Source: Carcharhinus amblyrhynchos (Eukaryota). From it: 64,000 bases of DNA. Position 1 is the stretch's first letter; each line of letters begins with the position of its first letter. Location: positions 13,268,001-13,332,000 of the forward strand of contig OZ336894.1 of NCBI GenBank assembly GCA_965287045.1. Reading direction: 5' to 3'. Below the pieces are notes generated by a model. The model ran no database searches. It saw only the letters and a list, made by a program, of their open reading frames with translations, and was not told the DNA's origin. The position numbers and the translations under genes were made by a program. This document shows, in pieces, positions 4,150-30,398 of the stretch.

Positions 4150-5620
4150 ACTTAAATATGTACTTTTAAAACATAGTAAGATGTTCTAAGGTGTTTCAAA
4201 GCAACATTATTAAAGAAAATTTGACACCAAGCCACATAAGCACTTAGTAAGCTGGATGACCAAAGGTTTGCTAGAAAAGGTTGGCTATAAGATGGTATCC
4301 TAAGGATGTATCTTAAAACAGTAAAAAGAGCTAGAGAGGTGACTAGGTTTAGGGTGAGAATTCTAGAGCTTAAGGTCTTGGCAGCTGAGGACAAGGCTAC
4401 CAGTGGTGCAGTGATAAAATTCAGAGATGCTCATGGGTCAAAATTGTGCAGATATCTCAGTGGGTTGTAGGACTGGAACAGGTTACAAAGCTAGGGTGGA
4501 TTGAGACCACTGAGGGATTTTGAAATCGAGGTGTTGCTTAACCTTGAATATAATTCAGCGAGCACAGGTGTGATGGGTGAAGGGCATAAGAACATAAGAA
4601 ATAGGAGCAGGAGTAGGCCATCTAGCCCTTCGTGCCTGCCCTGCCATTCAATAAGATCATGGCTGATCTGTCGTGTCTCAGTTCCACATTCCTGCCCTCT
4701 CCCCATAACCCTTAATCCCCTTGCCTATCAAAAACCTATCAACCCGCGTCTTAAATATATTTAGCGAGGCAGCCTCCACCACTTCAACGGGCAGAGAATT
4801 CCAGAGATTCACCACCCTTTGAGTGAAGAAGTTCCTCCTCAACTCTGTTCTAAACCGCCCCCCCTTTATCTTGAGGCTTTGCCCTCTAGTCCTACTGTCC
4901 TTTCTGAGCGGGAAGAGCCTCTCCACCTCTATCCTATCCATCCCATTCATCATCTTATATGTCTCAATGAGATCTCCCCTCATTCTTCTATACTCTAACG
5001 AGTACAAGCCTAGTTTATTCAGCCTCTCCTCATAGTTCAACCAAACTTTGTGTAAGTTAAGACACAGGTAGCAGAGTTTTAAAATTATTTCAAATTTACA
5101 GTGGCAGATAATGGGGGAGGTGGGGGGTATTGAAAGAGTCAAGTAAACAGGTCACAAAGACACAGATGAAAGTTTCAGCAAATGTGCAGAGGTAGGAACA
5201 GAGTTGACTGAAGTTACAGAGATGGAATTAAACAGTCTTAATGCAGCTATGTGGTCAGAAACTCATCTTTTGGTCAAGTATGACTCTAAAGCTATGCACA
5301 GTCTGGTTTGGTCTCAGACAGTTGTCAGGCAAAGGAATGGAATCAGTGTCTAAGCAACTGAGTTTGTGGTGGAACTCAGTTTGTGGTGGAACAGAAGACA
5401 ATTGCTCCAATCCTCCCAATATTTAGTAGGAGGAAATTTATGTTCATCCAGGACAGGCTGTGCTATACAGTGCAACAATCATGAGACGTTAAGACGGGTT
5501 ATGTGTGTGGGGCCGGGATGGATGGGTGGATGGGTGGGTGGGGTGGTGGTGGTGGTGGTGATAAATTTGAGCTGGTTGCCATCAGGATACTGTGGAAACG
5601 AATGGTGTGATCGGGCAGGT
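4150..5620 (-). mobile_element. Old L2-like LINE, interrupted by a young CR1
   Basis: Degenerate sequence resembling an L2 3' region runs on both sides of the 4586-5040 insertion (GTGATGGGTGAA | ...GTTAAGACACAGGTAGCAGAGTTTT). Confidence 0.6.
4586..5040 (-). mobile_element. Young CR1 3' fragment
   Basis: ORF 4678..5142 ends in YEERLNKLGLYSLE...GYGERAGMWN; (TTCTTATG)n tail; nearly identical to the end of 29746-30398. Confidence 0.93.
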
Positions 5621-6540: not shown

Positions 6541-6671
6541 AGTTCTTCAATGTTTTTGCTCGACCCATAACAGATACGTCAGTACGGTCCATGAGTTCAG
6601 CAATCTTCTGCCACTGATTTCCATGCACAATTTGCAAATGTTGCAGTTTCTTCAGTTCTTCATCCGTGTAT
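6541..6671 (-). CDS. TTF1: TTF1 coding exon (Myb repeat)
   Basis: CCTATCAG| ... AAGAACT|GTAAGT; 131 nt, phase 2 to 1. Encodes RYTDEELKKLQHLQIVHGNQWQKIAELMDRTDVSVMGRAKTLKN, a typical Myb repeat (GNxWxxIA). Confidence 0.93.
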
Positions 6672-7775: not shown

Positions 7776-7854
7776 CTGCCTTTACATCGTTTAGGATCAT
7801 ACATTTTCTTAGCTCGCTGATAAACACATTTCCACGGCCTTGCAATGCCTTCGG
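7776..7854 (-). CDS. TTF1: TTF1 coding exon
   Basis: CTCTTTACAG| ... AAAGGCAG|GTGAG; 79 nt, phase 1 to 2. Encodes AEGIARPWKCVYQRAKKMYDPKRCKGR (recalled TTF-I: IARPWKLIYYRAKKMFD..YKGR). Confidence 0.94.
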
Positions 7855-8563: not shown

Positions 8564-8749
8564 CTAGTCTGCAGCAGAATAAATTGCTCTGTTTCAGTTG
8601 TTTCATTCTTATCATCTCGTGATCAGACTCAGGAACGTGAAAAAACTCCCATTCATTCTGAACTCCAGTTAACTGCATTAATTGGTTTAGGTTTTCCTGT
8701 AACTGCATGTTTTCTGCCTCGGTAAACCTGCCTTGTCGGATTGGAATTC
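8564..8749 (-). CDS. TTF1: TTF1 coding exon (start of DNA-binding region)
   Basis: CCCTTGTGTAG| ... AGACTAG|GTATTT; 186 nt, phase 1 to 1. Encodes GIPIRQGRFTEAENMQLQENLNQLMQLTGVQN...FCCRL (recalled TTF-I: GVAIKFGKFSVKENKQL...LTGIES). Confidence 0.92.
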
Positions 8750-11535: not shown

Positions 11536-11882
11536 TGATACCGCAAGACCTCCTTCCCAATATTTCCAAGGATAATTAAATTTCCCTGGGAATTATACTT
11601 AGCATAATACCGATCTTTAGAAAATCTACAGTTGATTATGAGCAACGCCACATGAAATCTGCTCCATAAACGTTAAATGTTGAATACAGAGTTGTAAACT
11701 CTTAAGCATTTTAACACTTGAAAACACTATCTTTCATAGTAGTTTTAAATCTTACGTTTCCACAACATATTGAACTGGAACTTTACAATTGAGCAATTAA
11801 AAAGTGTGCAAGAAATTGCTCAACGATAAAGCTGTGTGTCGCTAAGTAAACAAAACAGCAGCTTTGCATTGATTAGTCGTAC

Positions 11883-14859
11883 CTGCTTCTTTAAACTTTT
11901 GAAATCTGGGAAGATCATATTTATACATGCTGTACATTGTTTCAGGTTTCAGCTTTGCCGCATTAGGGATAAAGTCCTTGAGTAGCTCAATCAATTTTGA
12001 TTTGTCCATCATTTTGACTTTAGTTGCATCTTGATCAAAGGGTATTTCCTCCCCCTGAAAATGCTCCTCAGCTGTGATGCTGACATTATTGTCAGATCCT
12101 GTCGTGTGCTGCTGCTGCTTATTTTGCTGTCTCCAATTTGGTTCTGTGAAGGTCTCGGGTGTAATGACAACCTCAAGTGTGCTCGCCCTGTTCAATGCAG
12201 AAGGCTTACTCTTCATCAAGTTCTTCGTTCTGCCAGGATTCTTGCGTCCTGACAAGCTGCCTTTCTCTTGCCTGTGTTTCTTGGAGGTTTTGACAATTTC
12301 TTGACAACCTGTGCTAGATGTATGCTTTATTCGATCACTCTGCTTTGTAGTGATCTCTGCAAAGTCACCAATGTCCACAGCGTCGGTGTGGTCTGTTGCT
12401 TCTTTCTCTGCAATCCCACCTGGACTGCATTTTACTCTCTGTTCCTTGAAAGATTTGTTAATGCTTTGTTGCAGGTCTGCACTGTGATTTTCAAATGGCA
12501 ATACGTTGCTTATTTTACATTTCTTGACTGATTTTAGTGGCACTTCAGAACCACTGAGAGAGCCATCTTTGTTAACACTGTTATCAAATTCAATTTTCTT
12601 CTTTGTCCTCTTGAATTTTTTGGCTGAAGTTTCTGTATCAATGTCAACAGATTCTGATATTGCCCTCTTTCGGTGAGGAATCTTTGCAGCAGTCTCAGAA
12701 TTATTACCGCCTTCTGCTGACTTACAATGGTATTTTCCACCCCGCTCTTCTGCTGAATTGGAACAACGTTTCCGTTTCTTCTTGTGGCCATCTCTGCCAT
12801 CCATTATCTTGGGACTCTGCACTGCTTTTGTAGTAATCTCTATAACATTTTTCAATGCCTTGACATGGTCCTTTTTCTTATCACTACTATCCATTAAGTT
12901 GGCACTTTGCGGCGTTTGTTTAGTCTTTACTGCAGACATCAAAACATTTGTCTCATCTGCTGAGCAGGAATGATGTACTTTTTTATTTGTTTGATAGCCT
13001 TCATTCTCCATCTTAATTTCTGTGGAATTCACCTGTGTAGCAACATCAATTTCTAATGAGCTGGGACGATGTTTTTCCATTTTTGCCTCACCATTACCAA
13101 CTAACTGAAGATCCTGGATCTCCCAATTATCACATCCTTCCTCTGACCTGGAGTTGTGACTCTCTTTTTTCCTCTCCTTTTGTTTTTCTCTATTATTCCC
13201 TGCATACTGGATATTTTGCCAGTCTTGTCCAGTGGCCACCGTAACAGTCTCTGAACCATCGTGTAAATCTTCCAATGAAATGAGGCGGTTGTTCTTTTTC
13301 TTCTTTGGTTTACTTTCACTGTGACCAGATTCTCTGGGGTTTCGCACTTCTGAATCATGACATTCTTCCTCTGATCTAGAACAGTGTCTCTCTTTTCTCC
13401 TTGTCTTTAGTTTCTTTTCACTGTTAACTACATACTGGAGGCCATCTTCAGTATCTACTGTAACAGTCTCTGAACTATCACGCCCCACTAAAGATGCAGA
13501 ACGCTCCTTCTTCCGTTTCTTTTCACTATTACCCACAAACAATTGAGTGTTTAAGTCCTGTTCAGTGTTCACTGTAACTGCTTCTGAACTATCACAACCT
13601 TCTAACGCTGAAGAATGTTCTTTCTTTTTCTTTCGTTTCTTTTCACTATTACCCACAAACAATTGAGCATTTAAATCTTGTTCGGTGTTCACTGTAACTG
13701 TCTCTGAACTATCATAACCTAACAATGAAGAATGTTCTTTCTTTTTTTTCAATTTCTTTTCACTATTGCCCACAAACAATTGAGTGTTTAAGTCCTGTTC
13801 GGTGTTCACTGTAACTGTTTCTGAACTATCACAACCTTCTAACAATGAAGGATGTTCTTTCTTTTTCTTCCGTTTCTTTTCACTATTACCCACAAACAAT
13901 TGAGCGTTTAAGTCTTGTTCGGTGTTCACTGTAACTGCTTCTGAACTATCACAACCTTCTAACGATGAAGAATGTTCTTTCCTTTTCTTCAGTTTCTTTT
14001 CACTACCTGCAAACAATTGTGTATTTAAGTCTTGTTTGGTATTCACTGTAACCTCTGCAGAAATATCATACTTTGCTAAAGATGGAGAATAGTCTTTCTT
14101 TTTCTTCAATTTCTTTTCATTATTACCCACAAACAATTGAGCGTTTGAGTCTAGTTCAGTGTCCACTGTAACTGTCTCTGAAATATCAGACAAAGAACAC
14201 TCCTTTTTCTTCTTCCGTTTCTTTTCACTATTAGCTACAAACAATTGAGTATTTAAGTCCTGTTCGGTGTTCACTGTAACTGTCTCTGAACTATCACAAC
14301 CGTCTAACGATGAAGAATGTTCTTTCTTTTTCTTCTTCAATTTCTTTTCACTATTACCCACAAACAATTGAGCGTTTAAGTCCTGTTCAGTGTTCACTGT
14401 AACTGTCTCTGAACTATCACAACCTTCTAATGATGAAGAATGTTTTTTCTTTTTCTTCAATTTCTTTTCACTATTACCCACAAACAATTGCGTATTTAAG
14501 TCTTGCTCAGTGTTCACTGTAACCTTTGCTGAAATATCATTCTCTGCTAAAGATCGAGAACGGTCTTTCTTTTTCTTCCGTTTGTTTTCACTATTACCCA
14601 CAAACAATTGAGTACTTAAGTCTTGTTCGGTGTTCACTGTAACCATCTCGGAAATATCACAACCTTTCTTCTGTTTCTTTTCACCAAAGCCCTCTAACCT
14701 GGGACTTTGCACCTCTTGGTTAGCCTCTACAGCAGCAGTCTCTGGAGCATCGTCTTCCAGTGATCTCAAAGAATGCTTCTCCTTTGTGTTGCCACTGTGC
14801 TTCTGTTTTTTCTTCTTATGTAGTATATCTTGCATCATACTGTTGTTTTCCTCCATCAT
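11883..14859 (-). CDS. TTF1: TTF1 first coding exon: large Lys/Ser/Glu-rich N-terminal region with tandem repeats
   Basis: Lies within the 1005-aa ORF 11842..14859. Acceptor GAAAATAG|GAAGATA-ATG places the exon start at 14866; donor GAAGCAG|GTACGA at 11883. The 2977 coding nt end in phase 1, matching the next exon. The end LKDFIPN...MYKYDLPRFQKFKEAG resembles the TTF-I segment before the Myb domains. Confidence 0.92.
13365..14661 (-). repeat. Coding tandem repeat, ~120 bp / ~40 aa unit, 10 well-conserved copies plus 1 or more degenerate copies
   Basis: Unit consensus CDSSETVTVNTEQDLN[T/A]QLFVGNSEKK[L/R]KKKKEHSSSLEG. On the plus strand GTTCACTGTAAC-like motifs recur at ~108-123 bp spacing and the frame stays open throughout. 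Confidence 0.97.
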
Positions 14860-15232
14860 TATCTTCCTATTTTCAAAAACGGAATAAATATTAGTTTAAA
14901 CAAGAAAGTGCATGGAACAAAAATATCAATTCCTTTTCTCCTTTCCTCAACCAACTATTAAGAGATTCTTTAATGCATTTGCAACATGATCATTCAAAAT
15001 ATTTTGCTGTGCTACTAAGCAGTTTCCAAGGTCAGCAGAGAAAATGACACGAAGTCACAAAATAGATCTTTGATGTATTTCTTAAGATAGTTAGTGCAAT
15101 CAATGAACAACAGCAACACTTACTAGTTCCTCACTTCTTTCAGTGGATTCTTCAATCTTATTCACTATAATTCAGCTTCAGATTTTCTTTTAATATACTT
15201 ACATGTGTGTGCATGTATCTATTCACCATGCT

Positions 15233-15526
15233 GGGGCAGCATGGTGGCATAGTGGTTAGCACTGCTGCCTCACAGCGCCAGGGACCTGGGATCGATTCGC
15301 AGCTTGGGTCTCTTTCTGTGTGGAGTTTGCACGTTCTGCCTGAGTCTGCGTGGTTTTCCTCCAGTTACTCCAGTTTTCCTCTAAAGAAATGCAGGTTAGC
15401 TAAATTGGCCATGCTAAATTCTCCCTCAGTGTGCCCACTGCATCAGAGTGTGGCAACTAGGGGATTTTCACAGTACTTCCATTGCAGTGTGAATGTAAGC
15501 CTACTTGTGACTAATAAATAAACCTT
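15233..15526 (+). mobile_element. HE1-type SINE, alternative-tail variant
   Basis: Head GGGGCAGCATGGTGGCATAGTGGTTAGC; tail GTAAGCCTACTTGTGACTAATAAATAAAC. Confidence 0.9.
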
Positions 15527-16019: not shown

Positions 16020-17520
16020 AAGAACATAAGAAATAGGAGCAGGAGTAGGCAGGCCATCTAGCCCCTCGAGCCTGCCCCGCCATTCAATAAGATCATGGCT
16101 GATCTGAAGTGGCTCAGTTCCACTTTCCTGCTTTCTCCCCATAACCCTTAATCCCCTTGCCTACCAAAAACCTATCTACCTGCGTCTTAAATATATTTAG
16201 CGAGGTAGCCTCCACCACTTCAACGGGCAGAGAATTCCAGAGATTCACCACCCTTTGAGTAAAGAAGTTCCTCCTCAATTCTGTTCTAAACTGCACCCCC
16301 CTTATCTTGAGGCTGTGCCCTCTGGTCCTGCTGTCCTTCCTGAGCGGGAAGAACCTCTCCACCTCTACCCTATCCATCCCTTTCATCATCTTATACTTCT
16401 CAATAAGATCCCCCCTCATCCTTCTAAACTCTAACGAGTACAAGCCCAGTCTATTCAGCCTCTCTTCATAGCTCAACCCCGGTATCAGCCTAGTGAACCT
16501 CCTCTGCACTCCCTCCAAGGCCAAAATATCCTTGCACAAGTGCAGCGACCAAAACTGCACACAGTACTCCAGCTGCAGCCTCACCAGTGCCCTGTACAGT
16601 TGCAGCAAGACCTCTCTACTTTTATATTCAATCCCCCTCGCTATGAAGGCCAGCATCCCATTTGCCTTCCTGACCACCTGCTGCACCTGTAGGCTGGGTT
16701 TTTGCGACTCATGCACAAGGACCCCCAGGTCCCTCTGCACCGTAGCATGCTGCAGCTTTTCGCCCTGTAAGTAGTAGTCCTTCCTACTATTATTCCTACC
16801 AAAGTGGATAAACTCACACTTGCCAACATTGTATTCCATCTGCCAGGTCCTCGCCCACTCGCTCAGCCTATCTAGATCCCTCTGCAGACTTTCTACACCC
16901 TCCGCACAATTTGCTGTTTCACTTATCTTTGTGTCATCAGCAAATTTCGACACCTTACACTTGGCTCCCTCCTCCAGATCATCTATATAAATGGTAAATA
17001 GCTGAGGCGCCAGCACCGATCCCTGGGGCACTCCAATAGTCACCAACTGCCAATCCAAACAGCACCCATTGACACCCACTCTCTGCCTCCTATTTGACAG
17101 CCAATCCCCTATCCACGCTAACACTTTACCCCCAACTCCATGCCCACTAACCTTCTGTAACAACCTTTTGTGTGGCACCTTATCAAACGCCTCCTGAAAA
17201 TCGAGAAACACCACATCCACCGGTTCCCCTCTATCCACTGCACTAGACACATCCTCATAGAATTTCAATAAATTTGTCAGACACGACTTCCCCTTAATGA
17301 ATCCGTGCTGCGTCTGCTCTATCAAACAATTCTTCTCAAGATGCCTCGCTATTTCCTCTTTGATGACGGATTCAAGCATTTTTTCTACAACAGACGTTAA
17401 ACTAACCAGCCTATAATTCCCTGCCTTTTGCCTGCTACCCTTTTTAAACAGCGGCATAACATTAGCCATTTTCCAATCTTCCGGCACTTCCCCGGAATCC
17501 AGCGAGGCTTGGAAAATAAT
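16020..17520 (-). mobile_element. Young 5'-truncated CR1 LINE with uninterrupted reverse-transcriptase coding region
   Basis: 477-aa ORF 16114..17547 with RT motifs (QHGF, DVVFLDFQEAFDKVPH, GVPQGSVLAP, FADD); no endonuclease domain; (TTCTTATG)n-type tail at ~16020. Confidence 0.96.
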
Positions 17521-18629
17521 CACTGTACTATACCACTGTAGCATCAATTACCAAATCTCTCTATCTACTTCATCAATATTGATGCTACTTTAACATCTGT
17601 CTGTAATACAAGTCAATTGCATTGTCATCTACTGGCTTGGTTATACTTGTCACAACAAAGACATGGATTCTGATGATTTGTCCTCCTTTGTTCCAAGATG
17701 GAGAAAGATTTTGTGGCTTCTTAGTCCCCACTACCATTCAGACAAATCTTCCCCGCATCCTTTCCAAAACATCAACGACCTTCCTAAACCATGTATAATT
17801 CTGGACAACACATTGCTGTAGCTGGGTATTTATTTCCCATCACCCATTATGTGCATAAACCTCCTTGATTCTCAGTTGAAGTCAAAAGACACAACCTTCC
17901 GCACTCTACCAAGCCAGGGTCCCTTCCCCACATACTGTCTTCCTGAAATTCACTTAAAGGTTAGACCACAAAATTTCATCCTGAGAATCCATTTCTTCAA
18001 TGGCTCTGCAAGCTAGTCAGCCTCCATATTTGACAAACTATCTCATTCAAAGTGCTGCAAGTTGCAAATGTGTTGTCTGAAGTATTGTATAGAAATAAGG
18101 ACGGAGTGCATGATTTTAAGATCTATGAACTACATCTGCACAAAGACCGCAAATAATCCTTCACCATATGAAGACTAGATTTTGGATTATCTGTATTACC
18201 AGGGTATCATCAAGTAAGATACCAAATTTCCTATGTACTGCACAATCTTGGGCGTGAATACCATGCTCATAGTCAATCTGCAGATACATATTTAAGAAAC
18301 TAAATGGTTTTATAAACTTCAGATTCCCATACCTATACATTGAGCAACCACTATTCAGCCAGACACACACCTTGAGGAAATCTAAGCTGCCTTCTTGGTA
18401 ACAAAGTTGAAAAAACTACTCAATTTTTCCCATTAGTTCATCCCTTTTTATGTTAAATAATTCATGAAACATGAGCAATTTTTAATATTTTTACTGGAAG
18501 CTGTTCCCAGCATATCTGCCATCCTCCCTGAAGCTTCACGCTTCTATGTCTATAAGGTATTCCCTGACATCAGTGCCCATTTTTAAACTTTCCTGATTAT
18601 TTTTTAATTTCTCTTTGGTATATCAACAT

Positions 18630-20694: not shown

Positions 20695-21017
20695 TGGTTC
20701 CAGTGAAAGGCCATCAACCTGAAACGTTAATCCTGTTTCTCTCTTCACAGATGCTGCCTGGTCAGCTGAATATTTCCAACACTCTTTCTCAGAAAACGTT
20801 CGCTCACTCCTCTTCTGCAACACTTACAGGTCAAGACAGCCTAAATAAAAGCAAATTACTGCAGATGCTGGAATCTGAGATCAAAAGAGAAAACACTGGA
20901 AAATCTCAGCAGATGTGGCAGCGTCTGTAAGGAGAGAAAAGAGCTGACGTTTCCAGTCCAGGTGACTCTTAGGCGGTGCTAGACCTGCTGAGATTTTCCA
21001 GCATTTTCTCTTTTGGG
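20695..21017. mobile_element. Penelope-like remnants with inverted arms
   Basis: AAATTACTGCAGATGCTGGAATCTG...CTGGAAAATCTCAGCAG mirrored by CTGCTGAGATTTTCCAG; degenerate hammerhead cores at ~20696-20732 and ~20942-20972. Confidence 0.7.
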
Positions 21018-21386
21018 TTAGCTCAAGACAACATCTACCCCTTCCACGGACAGAGTGACCAATCTGTTGAACGCCTTCAGCGCTTTCTGCTAATATTTCA
21101 GCAGCCAGACAGCGTTTGAATCGAACGCTCGCCCCCTCTTTGAAAAGATAATTTTAAAAACAAGTCATTCAACACATGGCGCTGAGGCTGCTACACAACT
21201 AACACGAGGCCGGAAACTGTAGCCTGGTTTAAAGTGGCGGACATTCCAGTCAGTAAACTTTAACTTCAGTTTGCGATGGACTTCCTACATCTCCTTGTAA
21301 TTATTAACAGTTTTCTTTTGGGGGAGGGCGGGGGAGACCATTGGAAACTTTTAAACAACCCGGACAAGGCACGTTTCTACACTTAC

Positions 21387-21430
21387 CCACTCGCTCTTAA
21401 AGCCCCCCTGCACCGGAAGCGGAAGTGCCA
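21387..21430 (-). other. TTF1: Putative non-coding exon 1 of TTF1 (5' end uncertain)
   Basis: Consensus donor GTGG|GTAAGT on the minus strand (plus ACTTAC 21381-21386), next to the CpG-enriched promoter. Exon 2 has an acceptor 7 nt before the ATG, so an upstream exon is needed. Confidence 0.6.
21413..21427 (+). promoter_or_regulatory. Tandem ETS/GABP site
   Basis: CCGGAAGCGGAAGTG, the tandem GGAA arrangement typical of GABP-bound housekeeping and bidirectional promoters. Confidence 0.75.
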
Positions 21431-21434
21431 CCTA

Positions 21435-21447
21435 GGGTCAGAGGTCA
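21435..21447 (+). promoter_or_regulatory. Nuclear-receptor DR1 element
   Basis: GGGTCA-G-AGGTCA: two RGGTCA half-sites with a 1-nt spacer. Confidence 0.55.
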
Positions 21448-21481
21448 TAAAGCCATAGTAACCGTATCGGTCTTGGATACT

Positions 21482-21495
21482 GTTACCGTGGCAAC
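21482..21495. promoter_or_regulatory. RFX X-box
   Basis: GTTACCGTGGCAAC is a near-palindromic X-box; an X-box-like partial site CCATAGTAAC lies at ~21453-21462. Fits the promoter of a ciliary gene. Confidence 0.8.
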
Positions 21496-21519
21496 GGGTT
21501 TCCAACAGCAGCAACCATC

Positions 21520-21602
21520 TGCAAAACGGGTGCTTCGAGGAGCCTCTGGGTAAAATGATTCAACATGTTTGAATGTGCTCGCGCTTTTGGCTAAAATTTA
21601 AG
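21520..21602 (+). other. CFAP77: Putative 5' exon of CFAP77 (5' end uncertain)
   Basis: Downstream of the X-box, ending at donor-like TTTAAG|GTAAAA; contains short upstream ATGs at 21555, 21565 and 21573. Confidence 0.45.
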
Positions 21603-21831
21603 GTAAAAAAATGTTACGGAAAGAAAGACACATCGAAGTTAGTGCACGTTTGAGTTTATGCGATTAAGCTTCCCCAGAAAACCGGGACTGGAGCTCAGAA
21701 AGGCTCTCGTGTTTTGTTGTGGTTACGAAATGCGGTAAAATAAAATTCTTCTAATGTTTATTAACAATACTCAAGCATGATTTATTAGGGGAAATGGTGA
21801 TGTAGTTACATCACCATTCATACAGTTACTT

Positions 21832-22441
21832 TTAAAGTTTATTTATTAGTGTTACAAGTAGGCTTACATTAACAGTGCAATGACGTTACTGTGAAAATCC
21901 CCTATTGCCACACGGCAGCGCCTGTTCGGGTACACTGAGGGAGAATTTCAGACTGTGGGAGGAAAGCCACGCAGACACGGGAGAATGTGCAGACTCTGCA
22001 CAGAAAGTGACCCAAGCCGGCTCCCTGGTGCTGTGAGGCAGCAGTGCTAACAACTGTGCCACCCCATACTGGACTAGTAATCCAGAGGCCCGGCTCCTCA
22101 AAGGGGCTGTTGAATGATGTATTACACATAATAGGGTGTTGTAATAATGTCACTGTTAAAGTTTATTTACTAGTGTCACAAGCAGACTTACATCAACATT
22201 CATGAGGTTACTGTGAAAATCCCCTAATCGCCACGCTGCGATGCCCGTTCGAGTACATTGAGGGAGAATTTAGCATGGCCAATGCACCTAACCAGCACGT
22301 TTTTCAGACTGTGGGAGGAAACCCAAGCATCCAAAGGAAACCCACGCAGACACGGGAGAACGTGCAGAATCTGCACAGAAAGTCACCCAAGCCGGATCCC
22401 TGGTGCTGTGAGGCGGCAGTGCGAACCACTCTGCCACCCCA
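21832..22441 (-). mobile_element. Two tandem alternative-tail HE1-type SINEs (21832-22066 and 22156-22441)
   Basis: Both begin AAAGTTTATTTA.TAGTGT.ACAAG on the plus strand and are followed by the same flank CTGGACTAGTAATCCAGAGGCCC. Confidence 0.88.
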
Positions 22442-25729: not shown

Positions 25730-27075
25730 AGAACAAAGAAAAGTACAGCACAGAAACGAGCCCTCCAAACCTGTGCAGATCATTATGCCCTAGTTAAACT
25801 AAACAAAACCTTCTGCCCTTACTCAGTCCATACCTCTCTATTCATGTACCCACCCAGAGGCCTCTTAAATATTGTTAATGTGTCAGCTTTCACCATCTCC
25901 TCTACAGCACGTTCCAGGCACCCACCTCTCTCTGCATGAAAAACTTCTCCCCACACATCTCCCTTAAACTTCCCCCCTTGAACATGTGCCCCCATGTAAT
26001 TGACACATCCACCCTGGGAAAAAGCCTCTGACTATCCACCTTTCAGTCTCTCTCATGATTTTGTAGACCTCTATGAGCCTCCGCCTTTCCAGTGAAAACA
26101 ATCTTAGTCTTTTCAACCTCTCCTCACAGTCAACACTCTCAAGGCCAGGCAAACCCTGGTGAACCTTTTTTGCACTCTCTCCAAAGCTTTCATGTCCTTT
26201 TGGTAGCGTGATGACCAGAACTGCACACAAAACTCCAAATGCAGCCTAATTAAGGTTTTAAATAGCTGCAACATGATTTCCCAACTCTTGCACTCAGTGC
26301 CCCACTGATGAAGGCAAGCATGCCGTATGCCGCCTTAATCACCTTGGCCACCTGTGTTGCCACTTTTAGGGAACCGTGGACCTGCACACCCAGATCCCTC
26401 CATATGTTAATGTTCCTAAGGGATCTGCCATTTACAGAATAATTTACACCTAAATTTGATCCTCCAAAATGCATCACCTCGCATTTCTCCGGATTAAATT
26501 CCATCTGCCATTTCTGTGCCCAAGTCTCCAATCTATCTATATTCTGTTGTATCGTCTGATAATCCCTGGCAGCATCAGCAACTCTACCAGTCTTCATGTC
26601 ATCCGCAAACTTACTAATCAAACCATTCACGTTTTCCTCCAGATCATTTGTATACACTACAAACAACAAAGCACTGATCCCTGCAGAACACCACTTGCTA
26701 CAGATCTCCATTCTGAAAACATCCTTCCACCACTACTCTTTGTCTTCTATAACCAACCTAGTTCTGTATCCATCTAGCCAGCCTACCCCAAATCCCATGT
26801 GATTTTAGGTTTTATACCAGTCTGTCATGTGGGACCTTGTCAAACACTTTACTAAAGTCCATATAAACTATATCCACGTTACTTCCCTTATCTTTGTCAC
26901 CTCTTCAAAAAACTCAATCAGATTGGTGAGACATGACTTTCCCTGTACAAAACCATGCTGCCTGTCACTAACTAGTTCATTTCCTTCCAAATGTGCATAT
27001 ATCCTGTCCCTCAGTATCTTCTCCAAAAGTTTTCCCACACCTGGTGTTAGGCTCACCAGCCTATAATTTCCTCTC
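25730..27075 (-). mobile_element. Degraded CR1 LINE RT / 3' end
   Basis: Fragmented ORFs with QHGFVQGKSCLTNLIEFFEEV, SKFADD, WQMEFNPEKC. Confidence 0.92.
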
Positions 27076-29563: not shown

Positions 29564-29745
29564 ACAGTCTCTAAGACGCTCCTTAAAACATGGCTCTGAC
29601 CAAGCTTTCGTTCGCCTGTCTTAATATCTCCTCATGTGGTCTGGTGTAAAAAAGATGTGAGGGAGAACTTTTTTAAGCAGTGAGTGAAAGAGGTGACAAT
29701 CGATTATTTCAAAAGGAAGTTGGATTGATACGTGAGGCAAGAATG

Positions 29746-30398
29746 GGATGCTGGCCTTCATAGCGAGGGGGATTGAATATAAAAGTAGGGAGGTCTTGCT
29801 GCAGCTGTATAGGGCATTGGTGAGGCCGCAGCTGGAGTACTGTGTGCAGTTTTGGGCGCCACACCTGCGCAAGGATATTTTGGCCCTGGAGGGAGTGCAG
29901 AGGAGGTTTACTAGGCTGATACCGGAGTTGAGGGGATTGAGCTATGAGGAGAGGCTGAATAAACTAGGCTTGTACTCGTTAGAGTTTAGAAGAATGAGGG
30001 GAGATCTCATTGAGACGTATAAGATGATGAATGGGATGGATAGGATAGAGGTGGAGAGACTCTTCCCGCTCAAAAAAGACAGTAGGACTAGGGGGCACAG
30101 CCTCAAGATAAAGGGGAGGCGGTTTAGAACGGAGTTGAGGAGGAACTTCTTCACTCAAAGGGTGGTGAATATCTGGAATTCTCTGCCCGTTGAAGTGGTG
30201 GAGGCTGCCTCGCTAAATATTTTTAAGAAGCAGGTTGATGGGTTCTTGATAAGAGAGGGGATTAAGGGTTATGGGGAGAGGGCGGGAAAGTGGAACTGAG
30301 CCACGACAGATCAGCCATGATCTTATTGAATGGCAGGGCAGGCTCGAAGGGCTAGATGGCCTACTCCTGCTCCTATTTCTTATGTTCTTATGTTCTTA
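29746..30398 (+). mobile_element. Young CR1 3' fragment inserted in an older CR1 tail
   Basis: Intact 183-aa ORF 29748..30299; tail TTCTTATGTTCTTATGTTCTT. Confidence 0.95.

What the first reader, a model, noticed from the sequence alone, without database searches (positions are those of the whole stretch)
13365..14661. TTF1 N-terminus expanded by an array of ~40-aa basic/acidic repeats
Seen: 10 conserved copies plus degenerate ones (traces to ~13060). Each pairs a Ser/Thr/acidic segment (DSSETVTVNTEQD) with a hydrophobic motif (QLFVG) and a poly-Lys tract (EKKLKKKKE). Unit lengths vary but the frame is never broken. The exon alone encodes 992 aa. Known (recalled): mammalian TTF-I is ~900 aa in total, and its N-terminus holds a negative regulatory/oligomerisation region with nucleolar-targeting signals. 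Inference: a lineage-specific multivalent charge-block module that could tune nucleolar retention, condensate behaviour, rDNA looping or kinase regulation. I do not recall this array being described.
Basis: partly seen in the sequence, partly recalled or inferred. Interest (0 to 1): 0.7.

Follow-up and report, generated by a model that had tools for sequence, protein, structure and literature searches.

The report
Shark TTF1 lysine-block repeat array
In this shark, the protein that likely stops ribosomal-RNA transcription (TTF1) carries ten copies of a 40-amino-acid unit that likely act as redundant nucleolus-targeting signals, as shorter repeats do in mouse, and TTF1 proteins of many other vertebrates carry repeats of unrelated sequence but similar charge in the same region.

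Summary
The array is real: ten units of 108-123 bp (window 14661-13483, minus strand), all in frame, plus two degenerate units, inside one 992-codon exon of a 1331-aa TTF1 found at one locus. Contigs from 3 of 3 RNA-like runs are spliced at the exon's 3' end, 2 of 3 at its 5' end, and none skips the array. The unit is shark-specific: 5-12 copies in galeomorph sharks, 2 in a sawshark, 0-1 in rays, none in chimaera or bony vertebrates. The kind of feature is known: mouse TTF1 has five 25-aa N-terminal repeats, each with a basic nucleolar-localisation motif and an acidic part (PMC6747939). Each shark unit has the same layout, so it likely works alike, minus ARF binding. Constraint is weak (omega about 0.4). 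AlphaFold's beta-solenoid for the isolated array is likely an artefact. The larger point: 85 of 213 TTF1-like N-termini classed here carry repeats, in about 31 unlinked groups, 30 with a basic block. I found no paper describing the shark array or this recurrence.

The parts
13483..14661 (-). Ten tandem units of 36-41 aa: acidic Ser/Thr segment (CDSSETVTVNTEQD), short hydrophobic segment (LNTQLFVGN), Lys/Arg block (SEKKRKKKKE), Ser-rich linker (HSSSLEG); protein residues 67-459
13366..13482 (-). Degenerate unit 11 (aa 460-498)
   Evidence: unit profile 27.8 bits
13144..13263 (-). Degenerate unit 12 (aa 533-572); alignable to the second ancestral copy in sawshark and rays
   Evidence: unit profile 23.8 bits; alignment A1
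11883..14866 (-). Large first coding exon of TTF1 (AG acceptor, ATG at 14859, GT donor); encodes the predicted disordered N-terminus and the start of the conserved domain
15203..15232 (-). 3' end of an upstream non-coding exon (GTAAGT donor) spliced to the array exon; its 5' end was not mapped
   Evidence: loose ends of X5 and X8 contigs; sequence
8564..8749 (-). TTF1 coding exon (Reb1/TTF1 central domain), spliced to the array exon
   Evidence: loose ends of X5, X8, X10
7776..7854 (-). TTF1 coding exon
6541..6671 (-). TTF1 coding exon, Myb repeat
   Evidence: PF00249 33.2 bits
3707..3935 (-). TTF1 coding exon, Myb repeat ending in the conserved Trp (QKW; human SKW). Three more exons and the last exon lie outside the window
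21001..22000 (.). Candidate shared promoter of TTF1 and CFAP77 (CpG-rich; X-box-like and ETS-like motifs); not shown to be the promoter
   Evidence: CpG obs/exp 0.78-0.85; motif matches at 21482 and 21413, (patterns recalled)

Best explanation
The array is a set of ten in-frame tandem units in the predicted disordered N-terminus of shark TTF1, and each unit likely acts as one redundant nucleolus-targeting signal (a Lys/Arg block) on an acidic, possibly phosphorylated spacer, as the repeats of mouse TTF1 do. Shown: in-frame array, spliced into RNA at both ends, one basic block in nearly every unit, ancestry in a two-copy motif of early elasmobranchs, separate expansions in different shark orders, weak purifying selection. 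Inferred: the basic blocks bind rRNA and acidic nucleolar scaffolds (NPM1, UBF, nucleolin) and so keep TTF1 at rDNA; extra copies arise by unequal exchange in a large exon where any in-frame duplication captures a basic block, and are tolerated because the signals are redundant; the copy number itself is probably only loosely constrained. ARF binding, the second role of the mouse repeats, is unlikely here.
For: Mouse TTF1 has five 25-aa repeats, each with a basic run; they act semi-redundantly, strength follows run length, one repeat suffices, acidic residues in the repeat bind a partner (PMC6747939). Shark units carry 6-8 K/R each; 60 of 64 elasmobranch units have 4 or more K/R in 5 residues. 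Same place in the protein, N-terminal to the conserved domain. Lys blocks between Glu-rich stretches direct proteins to nucleoli and drive co-condensation with UBF/rDNA or nucleolin/pre-rRNA (PMC11938373, passages). Charge segregation z = 6.2 against shuffles, FoldIndex -0.10. The diverged epaulette-shark array is modelled as disordered, pLDDT 22-32. omega among units 0.41 (core) and 0.44 (whole), better than omega = 1 by 2dlnL 6.7 and 10.9. Spliced contigs join the upstream exon to units 1-2 and unit 10 to the next exon. 30 of 31 unlinked repeat groups in TTF1-like proteins hold a basic block, 24.0 expected.
Against: No localisation or binding experiment exists for any shark protein. In mouse a second copy of the dominant repeat did not improve localisation, so extra copies may add nothing. 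Differences between related organisms within the array are 2 synonymous to 5 non-synonymous (X8) and 0 to 3 (X10), against 7:16 and 5:6 in the rest of the exon (15 differences were not listed), so no extra constraint on the array is visible. omega among units can be lowered by CpG decay and gene conversion. Basic-block density is the same with or without repeats (1.05-2.48 per 100 aa in 19 proteins; window 1.58). The T/S-E/D-x-D/E kinase-site pattern is kept in only 36 of 64 units. Rays and chimaera do without the array.
Confidence: 0.6

Rival explanations
1. The copy number is selected: the spacer (ETVTVDTEQDL..LFVGN) is a specific binding motif, perhaps phosphorylation-dependent, and adding units tunes avidity for a partner, rDNA looping or auto-inhibition.
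For: The spacer is recognisable across all shark orders sampled; omega below 1 in the non-basic core; separate expansions in ground, mackerel and carpet sharks with 1-, 2- and 4-unit periods; the mouse spacer binds ARF.
Against: Spacer residues vary freely, including 3-residue deletions and prolines; counts range from 5 to 12 among galeomorphs and 0-1 in rays; no ARF match in this genome (weak test) and ARF is reported first in chicken (PMC4657621, passages); no partner is identified.
Confidence: 0.2
2. The extra units are neutral filler: in-frame duplications in a disordered region, with no contribution of their own.
For: Between-organism changes in the array look close to neutral; composition equals that of the rest of the N-terminus; similar expansions come and go in many lineages.
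Against: omega 0.41-0.44 rejects neutrality among units; basic blocks of this size are active signals in the mouse orthologue, so they are unlikely to be inert.
Confidence: 0.14
3. The array folds into a beta-solenoid or cross-beta stack, one coil per unit, with a poly-lysine face for nucleic acid.
For: AlphaFold2 on the isolated array: three strands per unit, mean pLDDT 70.4, pTM 0.76.
Against: AlphaFold2 folds 32 of 78 random perfect repeats into such solenoids (PMC11795689, passages); the model stacks the Lys blocks as a strand; the other four models score 49-69; no PDB match at E <= 0.001; the diverged orthologous array gets pLDDT 22-32 (full-length with alignment, so not a like-for-like control); prolines and deletions fall in the supposed strands in other sharks; sawshark and rays have too few units for a solenoid.
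Confidence: 0.04
4. The copy number is an assembly artefact or the array is spliced out.
For: No contig spans the whole array; no long reads were seen.
Against: No two units are identical (2-18 differences in 63 core bases); unit-specific junctions recur in four runs of four studies, e.g. 13885-14281 in X4 and 13908-14281 in X5; no joint skips the array; other sharks' annotated proteins carry the same units.
Confidence: 0.02

Closest known systems
N-terminal 25-aa repeats of mouse TTF1 (five; three partial repeats in human), Boutin et al. 2019, PMC6747939
   Same: Same gene, same region; tandem units each with one basic run plus a spacer holding acidic residues.
   Different: Unit 40 aa instead of 25 (57 in simian primates); ten copies plus two degenerate; no detectable sequence homology (shark core profile scores 0.3 bits on the rat protein); ARF probably absent in sharks; function untested.
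'K-block + E-rich region' grammar of nucleolar disordered regions (PolR1F, LYAR, NUCKS), King et al. 2024, PMC11938373
   Same: Lys blocks separated by acidic stretches, near-neutral net charge, attached to a DNA-binding domain.
   Different: Here the pattern is a regular tandem array with a conserved hydrophobic segment; the spacer is Ser/Thr/Asp-rich rather than Glu-rich; TTF1 is not named in that paper's main text (0 occurrences).
Nopp140/NOLC1 and treacle/TCOF1 repeat domains (alternating acidic-serine and basic blocks; recalled)
   Same: About ten alternating acidic/phosphorylatable and basic blocks in a nucleolar disordered protein.
   Different: Those have long acidic-Ser tracts, heavily CK2-phosphorylated (recalled); shark units have only 1-2 S/T-x-x-D/E sites and sit on a Myb factor. 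No homology claimed or tested.

Membership tests
TTF1 (Reb1/Myb-type Pol I terminator) | C-terminal Reb1/Myb domain homologous to TTF1 | tested here: met
   PF00249 hit; 40% identity to human TTF1 over 374 aligned residues; the non-shark vertebrate hits of the Mustelus domain are mostly named TTF1
TTF1 (Reb1/Myb-type Pol I terminator) | Intact frame and conserved Myb Trp needed for DNA binding (mouse W714, SKWTE) | tested here: met
   1331 aa without stop; HRNWTQCRQKW against human TRNWMQCKSKW
TTF1 (Reb1/Myb-type Pol I terminator) | Orthology: single locus between SETX and CFAP77 (human order recalled) | tested here: met
   one locus in G000 (stricter search, so a floor); CFAP77 family hit on the opposite strand about 83 kb upstream; helicase PF13087 exons on the same strand about 88 kb downstream (family hit, SETX identity inferred)
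TTF1 (Reb1/Myb-type Pol I terminator) | Binds rDNA terminator sites and stops Pol I | not testable with these tools
   needs binding and transcription assays
Mouse-type TTF1 N-terminal NoLS repeats | Tandem units in the N-terminal domain, each with a basic run | tested here: met
   10 of 10 window units carry 6-8 K/R
Mouse-type TTF1 N-terminal NoLS repeats | Sequence homology to the muroid 25-aa or primate 57-aa unit | tested here: not met
   core profile <= 1.2 bits on all non-elasmobranch proteins among 302; shark group unlinked in masked BLAST clustering. The mouse sequence itself was not fetched; rat, Grammomys, vole and others stood in. So: works like them, not a member by descent.
Mouse-type TTF1 N-terminal NoLS repeats | Autonomous nucleolar localisation by a single unit | not testable with these tools
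   needs GFP fusions
Mouse-type TTF1 N-terminal NoLS repeats | ARF binding through the acidic part | tested here: inconclusive
   no PF07392 match in G000 (0 of 29 candidates; short divergent family, no proof of absence); ARF reported absent from fish and amphibians examined, sharks not covered in the passages seen
Beta-solenoid repeat proteins | Fold reproduced on diverged homologues and strands free of prolines/indels | tested here: not met

The most novel reading that the evidence does not exclude
The big N-terminal exon of vertebrate TTF1 is a convergent repeat generator: on the order of 30 separate groups (sharks 40 aa, muroid rodents 25, simians 57, hystricomorphs about 135, marsupials about 60, pigeons about 80, budgerigar 28, tortoise 102, many unnamed) have each amplified a different sequence around a Lys block, and selection uses this to set the valence with which the Pol I terminator is held in the nucleolus, perhaps tracking each lineage's rDNA terminator layout. 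The shark array would be one of the largest short-unit cases and would show the design predates ARF.
Probability: 0.2. Interest if true: 0.65.

Novelty: new variant of a known kind. Interest (0 to 1): 0.4.

Why it matters
PMC6747939 leaves open why TTF1 carries several nucleolar-targeting repeats when one suffices. Sharks offer a natural series (0-1 units in rays, 2 in a sawshark, 5 to 12 in galeomorphs) on one unit sequence, probably without ARF, and other vertebrates offer independent replicates with unrelated units. That makes 'does valence of Lys blocks matter for a nucleolar transcription factor' directly testable, and gives a clear case of a charge pattern re-evolving without sequence homology. 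If number proves neutral, it is an ordinary tolerated expansion in a disordered region.

Tried and rejected
Pfam on the exon gave a Laminin_G_1 hit (41.8 bits, aa 156-188): rejected as a repeat-summed chance match on a 33-residue piece, with no laminin fold context. AlphaFold beta-solenoid: rejected, see rivals. LC8-binding TQT-type array (motif recalled): TQ is in only 17 of 64 units, rejected. Second TTF1 paralogue or copies of the unit elsewhere in G000: none found (floors). No run is on record as RNA (no RNA holder listed); RNA origin of X5, X8, X10 is inferred from their splice joints. Intron-spanning joints over several exons were not examined; only the array exon and its flanks were laid. 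Contig depth was not used for copy number. Copy-number polymorphism between individuals could not be tested. ESM Atlas did not answer. Earlier findings of this scan: nothing on this array. 'Ttf1' in supplements of a mouse coding-VNTR paper: 0 hits, one of 13 files not searched.

Full report
Observation. The array is there. Tandem Repeats Finder reports 13508-14666, period 120, 9.8 copies, 82% matches. It lies in a 1017-codon stop-free frame on the minus strand. Cutting the translation at the TVTV motif gives ten units of 36-41 aa from 14661 to 13483, each a multiple of three bases long, and a profile of them finds two degenerate units further on. No two units are identical: they differ at 2-18 of 63 core bases. 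A DNA search with two units matches only this locus in the own genome (8 matches, all in the array).

The gene. Downstream exons match Myb domains. With neighbouring genome stretches, nine coding exons with canonical ends join into 1331 aa without a stop; the C-terminal part is 86% identical to Mustelus, 51% to chimaera and 40% to human TTF1, with the Myb tryptophan kept. A search of the own genome with the Mustelus protein gave 11 of 12 matches at this locus and one weak, stop-ridden match elsewhere (a floor). A CFAP77 family hit lies upstream on the other strand and Upf1-like helicase exons downstream, which fits the human order SETX-TTF1-CFAP77 (recalled). I take it as the TTF1 orthologue of a ground shark close to Mustelus.

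Is it expressed? Four runs were laid on 11780-15000, 4 of the 23 listed. The three RNA-like runs (three organisms, three studies) have loose ends at 11882 that read into the next exon (3 of 3) and at 14866 that read into an upstream exon ending at 15203 (2 of 3). One X5 contig joins the upstream exon to units 1-2; others join unit 10 to the next exon. No joint skips any part. Middle units appear as short contigs, the longest 13885-14281 in the DNA-like run X4 without a difference. No piece spans the whole array, so ten units in one transcript is likely, not shown. X5 also has one low-depth contig running into the intron.

Distribution and history. A search with the repeat region found five proteins, all galeomorph shark TTF1 (cluster members add three more species). 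Whole-unit profile counts at 8 bits or more: window 12, Mustelus 9, both Chiloscyllium 10, Hemiscyllium 10, Stegostoma 5, Carcharodon 5, Cetorhinus 5, Heterodontus 6 (three full, three half), Pristiophorus 2, rays 0-1, chimaera none. The carpet-shark proteins start mid-unit, so their counts may be low. The alignment shows two ancestral copies in sawshark and rays, with the first expanded in galeomorphs. Periods differ by order: 40-41 in ground sharks, 77 in mackerel sharks, 79 and 157-159 in carpet sharks, 75 in Heterodontus, and units group largely by order in a tree without strong support. Within the window, units 2 and 6 pair at 97% bootstrap, which suggests a block duplication. The non-basic core scores at most 1.2 bits on any non-elasmobranch among 302 proteins: the unit is lineage-specific.

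But the theme is not. Mouse TTF1 has five 25-aa N-terminal repeats, each with a basic run; they are semi-redundant nucleolar-localisation signals whose strength follows run length; one repeat suffices, two copies do no better; acidic residues in the repeat bind ARF; human has three partial repeats (PMC6747939; I read parts 1-3 of 5, covering abstract to discussion, and legend passages; figures not seen). In the proteins fetched here, internal repeats occur in 48 of 158 named-set proteins, isoforms included, and in 36 of 101 unnamed cluster representatives that passed the domain filter, out of 144 new ones listed. Taking all together, 85 N-termini had repeats and 128 had none (those in between were left out); masked BLAST linking puts the 85 in 31 groups, of which 30 contain a basic block against 24.0 expected from same-length windows of repeat-free N-termini (p about 0.002). 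The group count is rough: linking merges pigeons with budgerigar and simians with hystricomorphs, 20 groups are singletons, mostly unnamed, some may be faulty gene models, and kin are not independent. AAG/AAA-rich tracts may also favour unequal exchange, so the excess need not mean selection. No control gene was examined.

Properties. The array has 70 K+R, 64 D+E and 80 S+T in 393 residues, the same charged fraction (0.34) as the rest of the N-terminus, with charge segregation z = 6.2, lower than in human (10.4) or chimaera (8.6) N-termini. Basic blocks occur at 1.58 per 100 aa in the window protein and 1.05-2.48 in 18 others, with or without repeats. So the array adds length and number of blocks (15, against 6-10 in rays and 8 in human), not a new chemistry. 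Codon models give omega 0.41 (core) and 0.44 (whole unit), better than omega = 1 (2dlnL 6.7 and 10.9, 1 df). Against this, listed differences in two related organisms show no extra constraint in the array (2:5 and 0:3 synonymous to non-synonymous, against 7:16 and 5:6 outside; small, incomplete counts).

Structure. AlphaFold2 folds the isolated array into a three-strand-per-unit solenoid (pLDDT 70.4, pTM 0.76) with no PDB match at E <= 0.001. This is a known failure mode on near-perfect repeats (PMC11795689, abstract and passages). The full-length epaulette-shark protein, with a 17-sequence alignment, has pLDDT below 50 over residues 1-782 and 22-32 over its array, while the conserved domain starts to fold. 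Prolines and three-residue deletions fall in the supposed strands in other sharks. I read the region as disordered.

Mechanism. Most likely (0.6) each unit is a redundant nucleolar-targeting Lys block on an acidic spacer, binding rRNA and acidic scaffolds in the way described for Lys-block regions (PMC11938373, passages), and the array grew by in-frame unequal exchange under weak constraint. TTF1 level in the nucleolus controls termination and promoter occlusion in mammals (PMC12326227, passages), so valence could matter, but nothing here shows it does. ARF binding is unlikely: no match in this genome (weak) and ARF is reported first in chicken (PMC4657621, passages).

Novelty. Six literature searches (listings only, open-access library) turned up no description of the shark array or of recurrent repeat gains in vertebrate TTF1; subscription papers, including the 1990s TTF-I papers, are not covered. 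The proteins are already in NCBI gene models. Verdict: a real, new variant of a known kind; interest 0.4, most of it from the recurrence across vertebrates.

Noticed in passing
G000:C25:13257463-13257309 and about 250 bp further 3' (loci L013, L014, L018): The last coding exon of TTF1 is tandemly duplicated with its acceptor (234 bp, 94% identical); the first copy is intact, the second has an in-frame TGA and would lie in the 3' UTR.
   Followed up: partly
window 15203-15330: The upstream non-coding exon used in X5 and X8 lies at the edge of a SINE-like element that recurs many times in the window; possible exonisation.
   Followed up: no
window 21001-22000: The main CpG-rich stretch of the window, with an X-box-like motif at 21482 and CCGGAAG at 21413; candidate bidirectional TTF1/CFAP77 promoter.
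   Followed up: partly
proteins P0133-P0150 (marsupials), P0026-P0033 and P0044 (pigeons, budgerigar), P0038, P0048 (New World monkeys), P0076, P0087 (hystricomorphs), P0279: Large TTF1 N-terminal repeat arrays of unrelated sequence, up to 1436 aa in marsupials and 1586 aa in one unnamed protein.
   Followed up: partly
proteins P0002, P0004, P0006, P0008: Annotated carpet-shark TTF1 proteins begin inside a repeat unit and lack the N-terminal segment seen in other sharks; either a real new start or truncated gene models.
   Followed up: no
window 16114-17547 (-), 29736-30299 (+), 296-781, 4678-5151, 26250-26732: Fragments of LINE-type reverse-transcriptase frames, ordinary for a shark genome.
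   Followed up: no
PMC6747939 methods: The original mouse TTF1 reference lacked one N-terminal repeat relative to the current one, a hint of copy-number variation or a cloning loss.
   Followed up: partly
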